A stretch of 64,000 bases of DNA from Escherichia coli (GTDB lineage: Bacteria > Pseudomonadota > Gammaproteobacteria > Enterobacterales > Enterobacteriaceae), in assembly GCF_022846255.1 (NCBI RefSeq), contig NZ_AP025682.1; one strand, given 5' to 3'. Position numbers: made by a program. Position 1 is the first letter of the stretch; each line of letters starts with the position of its first letter. Shown here one piece after another: positions 18,501 to 24,500 of the stretch.

Positions 18501-21500
18501 CGCATCGTGGAAAAAATTCTGACATACTTGTCGAGCAGGCATAGAAGCGATCTCATTGAATTGGTTGCACAAATCAGTAGATCACAAAACTCTATGCCTG
18601 TCTTTTTTACCCGCCCATTACTAGGGATTCCTCAGCGCTAACTGAGGGCGGGATTTCTACTTCTATTATTCAGGCCATGCCAATCCATCACTGAATTTTT
18701 TATGCCAATATTTTCTTGAGTAAAAATCATCCCTGTCCAGATGATATATTAAATCTTGTATCCTTTTGCCTGGCTTATATTCATATTTGTATAACATAGT
18801 AGCAAGTTCAGATTGCATACGAAAGAGGTCATCAAATAGAGGCTGTGCATTATCAAAATTGGTGCTTCCGATCTGATGAACTAACGATTCAATACACTCC
18901 TCATACAACCGAAGGTTACGTTTTATTGATAAAACAACATCTCGATACATCTCAAGATCTCGTTGAAATTCAGGCCAAATATCCATTTACCTCCTCTTTT
19001 TATTTAACCTTGACTGGTTGAATATGACCAACTTGTCCCGTTTTCGGGTTATAGATCATTTCAAGACCTGCACCTTCATATCTTAAGTAGCCAGGTGCGC
19101 CTCTAGGATCCGGCTCAACTTTTGGATTGCTATTCAAAACTTCTCTTGCTTGCACGAATGGCGCAGGTCTGCCTTGCTCTCATAATTTCTCATAATAACT
19201 TTTGCTGAATTTCATTCCATCTACAGTATAAAAATCACCATCAAAGGATATCTTTTTCCCAATACCAAGGTAGCTTAATTTATTTGATGCAGCTTGCCCT
19301 ATAAGAGGCGTTGCCGAAGCCGCAATGATCTCCAAGCCCTGCTTTGTTTCGGTGTAGCTTTCTGCGGTCTGACGATCCCCCCCTTTGGTGACCATGAAAT
19401 AGTTAATCATGGCGTTTTTCACCTGCTGCTGATTCTGTGCATCAACACTGGTGATATCGAGGAGATTGACTATCTGACCATACGCATCAGCGTATTGCTG
19501 GCTGTATTTCGAGTTATAAGGGCCATCTTCGTACCCTTCTTTCGACGCAATAACTTTCAGTCTTGCGCTGGCACACGCTGAACTAACCGCCGTTATTACC
19601 GGAGATATACTGCTCCTTAAAGCCACGCACTGAACTCTCACCCCCGAGGCTCAGTTGTTCCACACCATGAAGACGGTCCGGTGACCACTGGGCATAAGCG
19701 CTGGTCAGCCACCACACACTGTCCGTGACGGGGCGCTGAAAACTGGCGCTTAATGACCATTTCCGGAGCTGATTTACGGGCAGGTCTCCCCTTTTCCCGT
19801 GGTCGCTTTCTGCGCCGAACCAGGGCATCCCCCGTGTGAATACCGGATTCAGTGTTCCGCCCCCCCCCCCAGAAACTTGTGTGTGTGATTCAGCCCGACA
19901 GAAAATGAAGTGAGTTTACGGCTGCTGCCCTGAAGCAGAACATCATCCAGATAATTGTGAATAATGCGGTGCTGCAGACCTCCGGTCAGTGCTGTCTTCA
20001 TGTCCCCGTTACGGAACAGGACATGCGACAGTCCCAGCCGGTGAGTCTGCATGTCTCCCGTGGAACGCCACAGCCAGCCCCGGTTATCTATGGTGCTGAG
20101 GTAGTCACTCCATGAATACGTGTAATCCACCAGGGTATAGCCATACGGCAGACTGACACCGGCGGCAAAATTCCTCGCATCATGTGACACCGAAAAGTCA
20201 CTGCTCCGTCCCCCGCTGACAAACCAGTTGTCAGCCAGCCCCAGCGGATTATTAAAAGAAAGGACACCATTTAACTGCCCCGTACCGGTATTCTTCTGTC
20301 CGCTGTTGTCGATGCCCACGCTCCCTGTGACAGGCCATTACGGCGATGCCGTCAGTGTCACCACCGACCATCCCTCACGGTCACCGGGCGATATTTCAAT
20401 CTGTACCGGCTCCGTACGCAGACGGTTAATCTGCTCCATCCCCTGCTCAATATCCCGCAGGTTCAGAACATTCCCCTCCATTCCCGGGAAAACCATCTTC
20501 AGGGTGCGGGCAGGAAGGTCAGCGCCTTCCGCCCGGATTTGCTGCAGCCTGCCTTCCATGACCGTTATGTGCAGTACGCCCCCTGAAAGGTCCTGCTCTG
20601 TCAGAAAGGCCCGGCTGGTGATATATCCCCGGCGTATATAGCCGTCCGTCACGGCATCCGTGACTGCGGTCAGCCCCGTGATATTCAGACACTGATTCAC
20701 CCACGGTGCCACCAGTCTGTCGGTTTCTGCAGACGTCAGTCGGGTGGCCCCACTGACAACAATGCGTGACACCGTAAAGCAGGGACCTTCAGTACCGGCA
20801 GACGTTTCCGGAGACGGAGTGATGGTCAGCGGCGCACTACGCTCCAGCGCATCACGCTGGCGCTGGTTTTCATCCAGCAACTGCTGCTGTTGCTGCTGAA
20901 TTGCACTGCGGTCACCCGGAGACAGCATGGCTGCCGGAGACGAAAATGCGGGGATAAAAAAAACAGAAAAACGGAGAGGGAGAGATAGCATATCCACGGA
21001 GATATTCGCCGGAGCATATCACAACTGAGGTGTACTGGCAATAGCGGACACTACCACTTGTTCTTTTTTTAAGCAGCCATCTGATGATATTTTTCCCTGA
21101 AGGCTGCCGGGGAGATATTCCCCAGACGAGAGTGACGACGCTGACGATTGTAGAAAATCTCAATGTATTCCCGTATTACTGAGATGGCTTCATCCCGGTT
21201 ATTAAAACGATAGTGGCTCAGGCTCTCATTTTTCAGCGTTCCCCAGAAGCTTTCCATCGGAGCGTTGTCGTAACAGTTACCTTTACGCGACATTGATGTT
21301 TTCAGACCAAACTGCTCCTGTATGACCCGGTAATCGTATGCGCAGTACTGTGAACCTCGATCAGAGTGGTGGATTAGCCCGGCAGGTGGGCGCTGGCTCC
21401 TGAGCGCCATAAACAGGGCTTTACCTGTCAGCTCTTTTGTCATGCGCTCTCCCATGGCGTAGCCGACAATTTCGCACGTATAAACATCTTTGATGCCAGC

Positions 21501-24500
21501 GAGGTACAACCATCCCTCCTGTGTGGCAACATACGTCAGGTCCGCCACCCAGACCTAATTTGGTGCTGTAGGAGCGAACGTCTGGTTCAGCAGATTTGGC
21601 GCAACTGGCAGATTGTGGTTCGAGTTCGTAGTCGCTCTGAACTTGCGTTTCTGCTTACAGCGTAGCCTTAGCTCCTTACGAAGACGTGCCAGTCGGTCTC
21701 GACCAACGATGATGCCATTCTCTGCCAGCTCTGTCTGGAGCCGCCGGGTTCCATATGTTTCGCGAGTGCGGATATGTGCCACCTTAATCTCCAGTTTTAG
21801 CCGCTCATCACTTTGTTTTCTGTCTGAGGGTTCATGCTGTACCCAGTTGTAATAACCGCTCCTGGATACACCAAATACCTGACACATCGCTTCAATGGGA
21901 AATTGTTGTCGCCATTGTTCGATTAACGCGTATTTTTCAGCGACTCCTGTGCAAAATACGCTGTTGTAGATTCAATCTGTCAATGCAACACCCCTTTCAA
22001 TTATCTCTTTCGGTGTTTTGAACTTCAGTGTCTTTCTCGGTCTGTTGTTTAGCTGAGCAGCAACCAGATCTAGTTCATGTTGAGTATATTGGGCAAGACA
22101 TGTCTTTTTAGGAAAGTACTGCCGAATTAGCCCATTTGTGTTCTCATTTGTTCCCCGCTGCCAAGGACTCTGAGGATCGCAGAAGTAAACTTTAACGCCG
22201 GTGCTGACAGTAAATTCTAGATGTCTGGCCAGTTCCATTCCTCTGTCCCATGTCAGTGATTTTCTGAGTTCTGACGGTAAACTCAGGAATTTGTCGGTAA
22301 GAGCCTGATTTACTGAGACAGAATCTTTGCCCCTGAGTCTAAGGATGATCGTATAACGTGATTTTCGGTCTACAAGTGTGGCTATATGAGAGTTTTTTGT
22401 ACCTGAGACTAAATCGCCCTCCCAATGCCCCAGAGAGCGTCTGTTATCGATATTTCGGGAACGTTCGTGAATTGGTGTTCCGTTCACTATGTTAATCGTA
22501 CCTCTTTCGCCTTTGCGGGTATGACGCCTGCCATGGCGAAGGCTATGCGACCGTCGCAGATGCTGTATATTCAGGTGGTGTAGCGCTTCACGGCTACGAA
22601 AGTACAGCGTTTTATAAATTGTCTCAGGTGATATTCGCAGCGTTTTTTGACGTGGTTTTGTTCGCCTTAACCATCCTGATATTTGCTCTGGAGACCATTT
22701 CATCTCCAGCTTTTCCAGAACAAGCTTTCGCAATGGTAAATTTTGATCCAGTAAGCACGGTTTTGGCCTTTTCGCCATTCTGTTGGCTCGGTTATTAGCA
22801 TCAACAGCTTTGTAATAGCGTCTGCCCCGATTACGCTGAACTTCACGTGAGATCGTCGAAGGACTGCGATTCAGCGCAGTAGCTATCGCACGAATGCTCA
22901 TTTTGGCTGACAAACCAGCTCGTATCTCCTCGCGCTCAGACAGTGTCAGGTGAGCTACAGCCCGCTTACGCTCATGGGGTTTTATGCCGCCAGTATCCCT
23001 TAACATAGTGAAGATCGTTCCGGGTTTTGAACCCAGGATATTCGCTATTTCACTGAAGCCTGTTCCGTTCTTCCATAGTTCAAAAACAGAGGCTTTTTCC
23101 TCTGCTGTAAATGTTCGTCTCATTCAAAAAACCTCCGCAACCCCATGTTTTCACATAACTGTTGCGTTGATCAATTGAATCTACAGTTGCTTTTTTTAAT
23201 ATATCTCGCTCAAGGCGAGCTTCATTTAACGCCTTACGCAGTTGCAGAATTTCAGATTCCAGTTCAGCCAGCGTGCGGGAACCAGGAGTACCGAGCCCTT
23301 TTCTGGCGGCGGTAACCCATTGTCCTAAAGTGCCTTCAGGAAGAGATAATCGGGAAGCGCCTTCACTGCTCGAAAGTTGATTTTCAAGAACCATTCTGAC
23401 AGCTTCGGCTTTGAACTCTTTAGAGTAACGTTGGGTTTTTCTGCTCATTATTAGCTCCTTCTGATGCCATTCTATTTCAGGAAGGAGTGTCCGTTAAACT
23501 CAGGCTACCTCACAACAGGGGACAGACAACGCACGGGATAAAAGGGACGTTTTCGTCAGAATGTTGTTCTGCCGGCGCTGCATGTTCTCCCCGTATTCTG
23601 GCCAGTGTGATGCCAGTGTAAATTCATGTCAAAAAGTGTCAGCGAGAAAATTTACACCTGAAAAAGTCGGTCGTAAAACTGTTTCATGGCGAAACATCAG
23701 GAAGTATGTCAGAAATGTGATCGCTATTGTGGTTTTACGGAAGAGCATAAGGCAAAAAACGGCGGGAAATTCATTGACATTCACGGAGGATAAACAGCAC
23801 CATTTTATTATCCAGCAAGAAAACCGTAATCCCCCTCTGAATCCGGACAAGGTTCGTACTGGCAACATAACCTGAAATGGCACTAATGGCCAGAGCTTAC
23901 TAATACATAATCCCTACAGGATGTAGCCACCAGTTTTGTTCATCCGGTATTCTGATTTGGTAACATGCTCCAGAAAGGAAGAAATATGTACTGCAATGAA
24001 TTAAAAGAATTTGCGCAAGAGCAGGAACAAAAACTTATCAGTGCGCTTGCTGATACCAGAGAGCACCCGTCCCCCGATGGTGAAACAAGAAGCCGGGATA
24101 ATTATCAACGGGATTACGCGCGTATTCTGTATTCATCATCATTTCGCAGGTTGCAGGGAAAGATGCAACTTTTTGAAATTGATCCTGAAAAATTCAACAG
24201 AAACAGATTAACGCACAGTCTTGAGGTTGCTCAGATCGCCCGAAGTATCGCGTCAGACCTCAAACTGGTTAACCCGGTGGTGGTTGAACTGGCAGCTCTG
24301 GCGCATGACATCGGAAATCCTCCTTTCGGTCATTCCGGTGAAAAACTGCTTAATGAACTGTCTGAAGAAATCGGCGGCTATGAAGGTAATGCACAGGCGC
24401 TACGTATCCTGAGAAAACTGGAGAAGAAATTTTCATACTGCAACGGATTAAATCTGACTCACCGTAGTTTACTTTCGGTTGTTAAGTATCCCGCCCCTCG

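What the first reader, a model, noticed from the sequence alone, without database searches (positions are those of the whole stretch)
21069..23448. Nested insertion: IS30 inserted 5 nt from the frameshift heptamer of an IS3-family element, with decaying transposases
IS30 (exact 1221 bp, terminal repeats, GT target duplication) splits an IS3-family orfA from orfB immediately after the A-AAA-AAG slippery site. The IS3 orfB additionally carries an in-frame TAG, and the IS110 transposase at 12765-13256 also carries an in-frame TAG and is cut by IS630. Such IS-in-IS nesting marks an insertion hotspot and a long residence time for the island.
Basis: partly seen in the sequence, partly recalled or inferred. 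Interest (0 to 1): 0.3.

Follow-up and report, generated by a model that had tools for sequence, protein, structure and literature searches.

The report
IS30 nested in IS600 frameshift site
One jumping gene (IS30) sits inside another (IS600) exactly at the latter's ribosome-slippage signal; the nest is real but ordinary, because that signal is a preferred IS30 landing site and the same nest occurs in over a thousand E. coli genomes.

Summary
Window 21026-23512 is a 2,487-bp nest. A 1,264-bp IS600 (4-bp CAAC duplication, inserted in the 5' end of cdiB) is split by a complete 1,221-bp IS30 (GT duplication). IS30 starts 5 nt 3' of the slippery A-AAA-AAA(G).

- IS600 orfB carries a private TAG (21555-57).
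- The ISEc45 (IS110-family) fragment carries a TAG at 12891-93.
- IS30's transposase is intact, identical in protein to K-12 InsI2/3.

- The identical junction occurs in 1,089 of 5,426 complete E. coli genomes, at many loci.
- The opposite IS30 orientation at the same dinucleotide occurs in 619 genomes.
- IS30 occupies the homologous dinucleotide of IS911 and of an ISEhe3-like element, in both orientations. This includes K-12 IS30A and IS30D.
- A weight matrix built only from IS30 sites outside IS3-family elements ranks this dinucleotide first of 1,238 positions in IS600. It also ranks the true site first in IS911 and in the ISEhe3-like element, and recovers the published lambda hot-spot centre.
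- 26 of 36 sampled IS30 copies lie in such windows.

The nest therefore says little about how long the island has been resident. Seven private IS600 substitutions do suggest local decay. Verdict: ordinary and already sequenced many times. The general IS30-into-frameshift-window rule is a modestly interesting by-product.

The parts
21022..21025 (.). CAAC target duplication, left copy, made by IS600 insertion into the 5' end of cdiB
   Evidence: The same CAAC is at 23513-16. The empty site in E. coli GmM062 (L001) has a single CAAC.
21026..21964 (-). IS600 3' part. It holds the terminal repeat starting TGAGGTG and orfB in two pieces (21555-21887 and 21069-21548). It also holds the 3' arm of the frameshift hairpin (about 21924-21964).
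   Evidence: 99.3-99.6% identical to elements that PGAP names 'IS3-like element IS600'. Pfam finds HTH_21 and rve in the repaired OrfB. The hairpin is predicted on the restored sequence: -13.1 kcal/mol, z = -2.07.
21555..21557 (-). In-frame TAG in IS600 orfB (Q138*), private to this copy
   Evidence: All other IS600 copies examined have CAG here.
21963..21964 (.). GT target duplication of IS30, first copy
   Evidence: GT is also at 23186-87. The restored IS600 has a single GT.
21965..23185 (-). Complete IS30 (1,221 bp). IRR is at 21965-21990 and IRL at 23160-23185. The transposase ORF is 21972-23123 (383 aa, intact).
   Evidence: It differs at 2 nt from K-12 IS30C/D, and the protein is identical. 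Pfam finds HTH_38 and rve. IRL position 15 is G>A (window 23171), private to this copy.
23186..23187 (.). GT target duplication of IS30, second copy
23188..23512 (-). IS600 5' part: terminal repeat ending CTACCTCA and orfA. OrfA now reads into IS30 as a 122-aa ORF at 23080-23448.
   Evidence: Pfam finds HTH_Tnp_1 in OrfA. Three private non-synonymous changes are present: T19M, I27S and V60L.
23191..23197 (-). Slippery heptamer A-AAA-AAA in the orfA frame, followed by G at 23190. IS30 starts 5 nt 3' of it.
   Evidence: The restored sequence reads GAT ATA TTA AAA AAA GCA ACA. The -1 frame continues into orfB.
23513..23516 (.). CAAC target duplication of IS600, right copy
12765..13247 (+). ISEc45-like (IS110-family) transposase fragment, residues 1-161, with TAG at 12891-93
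   Evidence: tblastn gives 97% identity to the ISEc45 transposase of strain KE26. Homology stops at 13248.
13321..14472 (-). IS630-family element. The 343-aa transposase (13341-14372) is intact. TA is duplicated within a CTAG target.
   Evidence: Inverted repeats lie at 13318-37 and 14456-75. Pfam finds DDE_3. The same arrangement is in E. coli 200177.
12257..12258 (.). Unoccupied predicted IS30 hot spot, in the frameshift window of a second, IS911-like IS3-family element (about 11338-12590)
   Evidence: Matrix score 14.53. This is rank 1 within that element and third best of 62,751 positions in the window.

Best explanation
**What it is.** Window 21026-23512 is a two-level nest. A 1,264-bp IS600 (IS3 family) transposed into the first codons of cdiB and duplicated CAAC. 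A complete IS30 then integrated into IS600, 5 nt 3' of the slippery A-AAA-AAA(G). That position lies between the slip site and its downstream hairpin, and the integration duplicated GT.

**Why that position.** The site is dictated by IS30's own target preference.

- The frameshift window of IS600, IS911 and ISEhe3-like elements reads ATATTAAAAAARGCN-NN-NGC followed by T-rich sequence.
- This is an imperfect palindrome of the kind IS30 uses as a hot spot.
- Read outward from the centre, its better half-site (N-G-C-Y-T-T-T-T-T) is the complement of the A-run plus GC.
- IS30 transposase, acting on a circle or dimer IR-IR junction (copy-out-paste-in), attacks the two strands 2 bp apart at the centre.

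**Consequences.**

- The OrfAB fusion transposase can no longer be made, so this IS600 copy is non-autonomous.
- It has since drifted: Q138* plus three non-synonymous orfA changes.
- IS30 remains coding-intact.

**Shown versus inferred.** Shown here: the structure, the recurrence at the same dinucleotide in several host ISs and in both orientations, and the match to a target matrix derived from unrelated IS30 sites. Inferred: direct recognition of the site by the transposase, and that at this locus IS30 arrived after IS600 was already resident.
For: **Structure**
- Structure and duplications.

**Recurrence in IS600**
- The identical junction is in 1,089 of 5,426 genomes.
- The whole 2,487-bp nest is in 793 genomes, with non-matching flanks.
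- Six fetched copies lie in six different contexts.
- A synthetic junction for the opposite orientation is found in 619 genomes. It was verified base by base in L015.

**Recurrence in other host ISs**
- IS30 sits at the homologous dinucleotide of IS911 (L003, K-12 IS30A in L055; opposite orientation in L038 and L046).
- The same holds for the ISEhe3-like element (L004, L021; opposite orientation in L047).
- It also holds for a diverged IS911-like element (L051).
- An IS30 relative about 10% diverged occupies the same dinucleotide in L022.
- Sources.

**Independent target matrix**
- The matrix was built from 10 half-sites of IS30 insertions outside IS3-family elements.
- It ranks the true dinucleotide 1st of 1,238 positions in restored IS600 (11.27, against 6.05 for the runner-up).
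- It ranks the true site 1st in IS911A and 1st in the ISEhe3-like element.
- Its top site in lambda 33200-33400 is 33290/91. That is the junction of the experimentally defined LHS hot spot (PMC9333248).
- The frameshift windows of IS2 and of an IS629-like element score low or negative. No IS30 insertion in them was seen in this sample.

**Census and order of events**
- 26 of 36 IS30 left ends found by an exact IRL scan lie in IS3-family windows.
- One locus carries IS600 alone in one genome (L032) and IS600::IS30 in another (L046).
- This IS600 has 7 private substitutions, against 1 in its IS30.
Against: - No experiment here shows IS30 transposase choosing this site.
- The published 24-bp consensus (Olasz et al. 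1998) could not be retrieved, so the comparison rests on my own small matrix of 10 half-sites, which is biased towards AT-rich sequence.
- Enrichment in natural genomes also reflects survivorship. Insertions into another IS are harmless, so they persist.
- The 7-versus-1 substitution asymmetry is only marginal (binomial p about 0.04). IS30 copies are so uniform everywhere that homogenisation cannot be excluded.
- No uninterrupted copy of this IS600 haplotype is on record. In-situ arrival of IS30 at this locus is therefore not proven.
Confidence: 0.85

Rival explanations
1. The nest was not built here. A pre-formed IS600::IS30 composite arrived as one 2,487-bp unit, using the IS600 ends and an IS600 OrfAB transposase supplied in trans by another copy. 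A related route is that the IS30 insert was copied into a resident IS600 by gene conversion from another composite.
For: - The composite has exactly the same length and junctions at many loci. In 7 of 14 full copies examined, its own 3- to 4-bp duplications flank the whole unit: window, L006, L008, L010, L025, L041 and one copy in L043.
- Two copies at different loci of one genome (L034, L036) share linked private variants in both parts. These are 624T and 758A in IS30, and 590A and 675T in IS600.
- One strain (IMG 2869924733, loci L039-L044) carries at least six IS600::IS30 junctions in this orientation. The loci read show none in the other orientation and no uninterrupted IS600.
- This particular insertion is absent from all 5,426 complete genomes, while the composite is widespread.
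Against: - Flanking duplications are equally expected if IS600 came first and IS30 hit it later.
- The window's IS600 part carries 7 private substitutions and its IS30 part 1, which fits a younger IS30.
- Both orientations and several host ISs show that repeated independent hits do occur.
- Composites sit on several IS600 haplotypes that uninterrupted copies share.
- IS3-family transposases are known to act preferentially in cis (general knowledge, not tested here).
Confidence: 0.3
2. The island is an insertion hot spot or IS graveyard, and the IS30-in-IS600 nest is a chance product of many insertions accumulating over a long residence.
For: The window does hold several IS elements and pseudogenes: an IS911-like element, an ISEc45 fragment, an IS630-like element, IS600::IS30 and a broken cdiB. 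This IS600 copy has private damage.
Against: - A chance nest would not recur at one dinucleotide in 1,089 plus 619 genomes and in three or more host IS types.
- Nor would it be predicted as the top site by a matrix trained on unrelated sites.
- The window holds only one IS600 and one IS30.
Confidence: 0.04
3. IS30 has no special preference for this site. It inserts broadly, and only insertions inside other ISs survive selection, which gives an apparent enrichment.
For: Insertions into an IS cost the host nothing. IS30 moves very rarely: 0 of 758 new insertions in K-12 mutation-accumulation lines (PMC5009759). What is seen in genomes is therefore heavily filtered.
Against: Survivorship would spread insertions along the 1.26-kb host IS rather than stack them on one dinucleotide in both orientations. 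The site also matches non-IS3 IS30 sites and the experimentally defined lambda hot spot.
Confidence: 0.05

Closest known systems
IS911A::IS30A, and IS911B-IS30D-IS600 remnant, in E. coli K-12 MG1655 (CP4-6 and KpLE2 regions)
   Same: IS30 lies at the homologous dinucleotide just 3' of the slippery run of an IS3-family element, with a 2-bp duplication. IS30D is even flanked by the same 327-bp IS600 orfA-side piece as here. The interruption of IS911 by IS30A is drawn in PMC9333248.
   Different: The host IS is IS911 (IS30A), or the flanks are chimeric (IS30D). The K-12 host ISs are incomplete. Here both IS600 ends and its target duplication are intact.
IS30 hot-spot (HS) targeting, e.g. the lambda LHS site (Olasz et al. 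1998; summarised in PMC9333248)
   Same: The target is nearly palindromic, the 2-bp duplication is at its centre, and both orientations are used. My matrix picks 33290/91 in lambda and the GT dinucleotide in IS600. The two sites are identical at 14 of 22 positions.
   Different: LHS was defined experimentally. The IS3-family site is inferred from natural insertions only. I could not compare it with the published 24-bp consensus.
The IS600::IS30 composite itself, as found in other E. coli
   Same: The same 2,487 bp at 99.2-99.7% identity, with the same junctions and orientation. It occurs in 793-1,089 complete genomes on chromosomes and plasmids.
   Different: This copy is at a locus not seen in the complete-genome set. 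It carries 8 private substitutions, including the orfB TAG and an IRL G>A change.
Other site-specific IS-in-IS nests, e.g. IS1237 always at one position of ISLxc2 in Leifsonia xyli (PMC2516522)
   Same: One IS is repeatedly found at a fixed position within another.
   Different: The IS families are different. That insertion is upstream of the transposase gene rather than in a frameshift signal.

Membership tests
IS30 (IS30 family) | About 1,221 bp with 26-bp imperfect terminal inverted repeats starting TGTAGATTCAAT | tested here: met
   21965-23185 is 1,221 bp with the repeats at both ends. It differs at 2 nt from K-12 IS30C/D.
IS30 (IS30 family) | Single transposase of about 383 aa with an N-terminal HTH and a DDE (rve) core | tested here: met
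   The ORF at 21972-23123 is 383 aa. Pfam finds HTH_38 (1.6e-23) and rve (4.1e-14). The protein is identical to K-12 InsI2/3.
IS30 (IS30 family) | 2-bp target duplication | tested here: met
   GT at 21963-64 and 23186-87. The restored IS600 and uninterrupted copies have a single GT.
IS600 (IS3 family, IS3 group) | 1,264 bp with TG...CA ends and imperfect terminal repeats | tested here: met
   The restored length is 1,264 bp, with ends TGAGGTG...CTACCTCA. It is 99.4% identical to an intact element that PGAP names IS600 (L012).
IS600 (IS3 family, IS3 group) | orfA (HTH) and orfB (DDE) overlapping in the -1 phase, with an A-rich slippery heptamer and a downstream structure | tested here: met
   OrfA matches HTH_Tnp_1. 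OrfB matches HTH_21 and rve. The A7G run and -1 continuity are shown. The hairpin is -13.1 kcal/mol, z = -2.07.
IS600 (IS3 family, IS3 group) | 3-4 bp target duplication | tested here: met
   CAAC (4 bp) here, with the empty site in GmM062. Other copies show 3-bp duplications.
IS600 (IS3 family, IS3 group) | Autonomous element able to make the OrfAB transposase | tested here: not met
   orfA and orfB are separated by 1,223 bp, and orfB carries Q138*.
IS30 hot-spot (HS) class of target sites | Near-palindromic sequence with insertion at its central 2 bp, used in both orientations | tested here: met
   Both orientations occur at the same dinucleotide. The symmetric matrix from non-IS3 sites ranks the site 1st of 1,238.
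IS30 hot-spot (HS) class of target sites | Match to the published 24-bp consensus (Olasz et al. 1998) | not tested
   The paper is not held in the library. Only the lambda LHS coordinates given in PMC9333248 could be used.
IS30 hot-spot (HS) class of target sites | Experimentally elevated insertion frequency | not testable with these tools
   Needs a transposition assay.
IS110 family (ISEc45-like fragment at 12765-13247) | Homology to an IS110-family transposase | tested here: met
   156 of 161 residues match the ISEc45 transposase of strain KE26, with a TAG at codon 43. It is only a fragment: residues 162-377 are absent.
IS630 family (13321-14472) | DDE_3 transposase, terminal inverted repeats, and TA duplication in a CTAG target | tested here: met
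   Pfam finds DDE_3 at 3e-21. The 20-nt repeats are 90% complementary. The flanks read C-TA|...|TA-G.

The most novel reading that the evidence does not exclude
The programmed-frameshift window of a subset of IS3-family elements (IS600, IS911, ISEhe3-like) is a functionally constrained hot spot for IS30. These host ISs need the A-run and the adjacent GC-rich hairpin base, so they cannot easily lose it.

On this reading IS30 behaves as a parasite of parasites.

- Most natural IS30 copies sit in these windows: 26 of 36 sampled, and 3 of 4 in K-12.
- Each hit abolishes the host IS's OrfAB transposase.
- The resulting composite can then spread with IS600 ends or by gene conversion, so IS30 gains a harmless and mobile landing pad.

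Co-orientation places the IS30 transposase start just downstream of, and overlapping, the extended orfA. That could let the IS600 promoter feed IS30 expression, which might explain why this orientation predominates (1,089 against 619 genomes). I did not find this generalisation stated in the accessible literature.
Probability: 0.4. Interest if true: 0.45.

Novelty: already known. Interest (0 to 1): 0.3.

Why it matters
For this window it matters mostly as a caution. An IS-in-IS nest at this position cannot be read as a clock, or as a sign of an island-specific hot spot. The nest is a common, partly pre-fabricated module in E. coli.

More generally, a fixed IS30 landing site inside abundant IS3-family elements bears on three points.

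- **Rearrangement.** The nest places IS30 homology inside different IS3-family elements. The chimeric IS30 flanks seen in K-12 IS30D and in several prophage contigs fit recombination or inversion between such nests.
- **Annotation.** Many fragments labelled 'IS3-like, partial' or 'transposase, partial' are two halves of one nest.
- **Tool use.** It offers a natural, compact target sequence for anyone using IS30 as a site-directed integration tool.

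Tried and rejected
1. **Published IS30 consensus.** Four literature searches and three direct look-ups failed to retrieve Olasz 1998 or related papers. I built my own matrix instead.
2. **Genome-contig scan.** A scan with a 34-nt IS30 end returned a single Pantoea contig, which was useless for a census. The viral-contig scan was used instead.
3. **SNP markers to separate unit transposition from repeated IS30 hits.** IS30 is almost invariant everywhere. The six composites first fetched were near-identical to intact IS600. Only the L034/L036 pair and the L032/L046 pair were informative, and they point in opposite directions.
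4. **Orientation as a test of single origin.** Both orientations exist at several loci, so this could not decide the question.
5. **Uninterrupted copy of this IS600 haplotype.** A look-up of its 100-aa OrfA found nothing on record.
6. **Suspicion that the window is not E. coli.** A 24-kb stretch averaged only about 95% identity. I rejected the idea because the window's CadC is an exact match to a protein on tens of thousands of contigs. The low average most likely comes from variable island segments.
7. **Resemblance to IS30's own repeats.** The alternative IS30 target type is its own inverted repeats. Only a 7-nt GCAACAG coincidence exists in IS600, and none in IS911, so I did not pursue it.
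8. **IS630 ends.** My first crude search for them failed. The repeat finder then located them.

Full report
**1. What is in the sequence**

Reading 20400-24400 and listing ORFs shows an intact 383-aa ORF at 21972-23123 on the minus strand. It is bracketed by TGTAGATTCAAT... at 21965 and ...ATTGAATCTACA at 23185.

- These are the 26-bp terminal repeats of a 1,221-bp element, flanked on each side by GT.
- The element differs from K-12 IS30C/D at two bases, and its transposase is identical in protein to theirs. Pfam finds HTH_38 and rve.
- Cutting it out with one GT restores a 1,264-bp element running from TGAGGTG to CTACCTCA. It has a 100-aa orfA (HTH_Tnp_1), a -1-phase orfB (HTH_21, rve) and the run TTAAAAAAAG.
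- PGAP names its close relatives IS600.
- In the orfA frame the slippery heptamer is A-AAA-AAA (23197-23191), followed by G. IS30 begins 5 nt further on, at the base of a predicted hairpin (-13.1 kcal/mol, z = -2.07).
- IS600 as a whole spans 21026-23512 and is flanked by CAAC on both sides.
- Strain GmM062 has the empty site with one CAAC, inside the first codons of a ShlB/CdiB-family gene.
- The locus is 100% identical in independent assemblies, so it is real.

**2.

- The orfB TAG (21555-57) is real. It replaces CAG in every other copy examined.
- The IS110-family fragment at 12765-13247 is 97% identical to residues 1-161 of the ISEc45 transposase and has TAG at 12891-93.
- The fragment is not directly cut by IS630. 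The IS630-like element is 13321-14472, with 20-nt inverted repeats and a TA duplication in CTAG. That leaves 72 unexplained bases between them.
- IS30 and the IS630-family transposase are not decaying.

**3. The nest is not specific to this island**

A search with the region plus its flanks matched only the element, never the flanks. The match covered 793 of 5,426 complete E. coli genomes, on chromosomes and plasmids.

- A 160-nt probe across the IS600/IS30 junction is complete in 1,089 genomes.
- Six fetched copies lie in six unrelated settings: iha-lldP, the O-antigen cluster, next to ISEc52, a prophage exoribonuclease gene, a pO157-like plasmid, and a Tn3-family tnpA. Each is exactly 2,487 bp.
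- The uninterrupted IS600 site is present in 1,639 genomes.
- IS30 itself is present in 3,619 genomes.

**4. The same dinucleotide is hit repeatedly**

- A synthetic junction with IS30 reversed is found complete in 619 genomes. I confirmed it at the base level in L015, L014 and L016, the last being an O157:H7 genome.
- IS30 also lies at the homologous dinucleotide of IS911. Examples are the pAPEC-O2-211A plasmid and K-12 IS30A, with the reverse orientation in L038 and L046.
- It lies there too in an ISEhe3-like element (strain 1303, L021; reverse orientation in L047) and in a diverged IS911-like element (L051).
- An IS30 relative about 10% diverged occupies the same spot in L022.
- In K-12, three of the four IS30 copies are in such windows. 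IS30D is flanked by an IS911B piece and by the same 327-bp IS600 piece seen here.
- I count at least eight independent events.
- An exact scan of viral contigs for the IS30 left end, plus one genome hit, gave 36 ends. Of these, 26 abut an IS3-family frameshift window.

**5. Why this site**

IS30 is known to prefer nearly palindromic hot spots and to insert at their central 2 bp (PMC9333248).

- I built a symmetric matrix from 10 half-sites taken only from IS30 insertions outside IS3-family elements. These were three prophage sites, K-12 ydbA and two single flanks.
- The matrix ranks the true dinucleotide first of 1,238 positions in restored IS600 (11.27, against 6.05 for the next).
- It ranks the true site first in IS911A (15.76) and first in the ISEhe3-like element (10.17).
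- Its best site in lambda 33200-33400 is 33290/91. That is where the published LHS hot spot is split.
- The better half-site, read outward, is N-G-C-Y-T-T-T-T-T. This is the complement of the slippery A-run plus GC.
- The frameshift windows of IS2 and of an IS629-like element score low or negative.
- In the window with IS30 excised, the IS600 site ranks 13th of 62,751 positions. The third best is the unoccupied frameshift window of the window's other IS3-family element, at 12257-58.

**6. How this copy arose**

Two routes are open, and both are documented elsewhere.

- **In-situ hits.** One prophage locus carries IS600 alone in one genome and IS600::IS30 in another (L032 against L046).
- **Spread as a unit, or by gene conversion.** Two copies at different loci of one genome share linked private variants in both the IS30 and IS600 parts (L034, L036). 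One strain has six or more junctions in this orientation, with none reversed.

For the window itself the evidence leans one way without settling it.

- The IS600 part has 7 private substitutions: T19M, I27S and V60L in orfA, two synonymous changes and Q138* in orfB, and one non-coding change.
- The IS30 part has one private substitution, IRL position 15 G>A.
- The haplotype is on record only at this locus. No uninterrupted version is on record.
- I favour IS600 arriving first and IS30 later, at about 2:1, but this is not proven.

**7. Comparison with what is known, and novelty**

Every component is a textbook element. The nest itself is sequenced in over a thousand genomes, and K-12 carries annotated equivalents. 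I therefore rate the feature as already known and ordinary.

I did not find, in the accessible literature, the statement that IS3-family frameshift windows are the main natural IS30 landing site. The key 1998 target-specificity paper was not readable, so I cannot exclude that it says so.

**8. Verdict**

The hot spot is a property of the IS600 sequence, not of the island, and the nest alone gives no residence time. Interest is low to modest (0.3).

Noticed in passing
window 11338-12590 (hot spot at 12257-12258): A second IS3-family element, IS911-like and 99% identical to an intact one in strain KE26. Its frameshift window GATATTAAAAAAGGCT-AC-TGCACTCTTGATG is the third best predicted IS30 target in the whole window, yet it is unoccupied.
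   Followed up: partly
window 13249-13320: 72 bases lie between the truncation point of the ISEc45 fragment and the TA-flanked IS630-like element. They belong to neither. What truncated ISEc45 is unexplained. The same arrangement is in E. coli 200177 (L017).
   Followed up: partly
window about 17500-21025: The contact-dependent inhibition locus is degraded. cdiB is in at least three ORF pieces (19583-20997) and has lost its first codons to IS600. The roughly 10-kb cdiA seen next to cdiB in strain GmM062 (L001) appears to be mostly missing.
   Followed up: partly
window 23965-25887: A dGTPase-family gene (HD plus HD_assoc) is followed by a 208-aa ORF with no Pfam match. In relatives this pair is conserved next to an H-NS paralogue and a ProQ/FinO-like gene (L001, L062). 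It may be a defence-type module. Not examined.
   Followed up: no
L022 (IMG/VR UViG_2847550744_000001), IS30 IRL match at locus 3732-3757: An IS30 relative about 10% diverged from IS30 (118 differences) but with an identical left terminal repeat. It is inserted at the same dinucleotide of the ISEhe3-like frameshift window.
   Followed up: partly
L026, L029, L032, L033; K-12 IS30D (L054 3460-4680): These IS30 copies have two flanks that come from different IS3-family hosts, or from the same side of IS600 twice. This suggests recombination or inversion between separate nests.
   Followed up: partly
L023, L024, L052 versus L045: A natural IS30 site outside IS3-family elements, in a prophage: TGTA-AG-TGCCTTTTTCTG. 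It is occupied in both orientations in different genomes, so it is another candidate hot spot.
   Followed up: partly
window 15028-17435 versus K-12 L054: nanX-nanY in the window are followed by this island. In K-12 the same genes are followed, in KpLE2, by IS911B-IS30D-IS600 remnants. The same chromosomal neighbourhood therefore carries IS30/IS3-family nests in both strains.
   Followed up: no
window 23171: Position 15 of the IS30 left terminal repeat is A instead of G. This change is private to this lineage. Whether it affects transposase binding or activity is unknown.
   Followed up: no
window 11384-12388 (+): A 334-aa ORF lies antisense to the IS3-family orfB. It is probably spurious.
   Followed up: no
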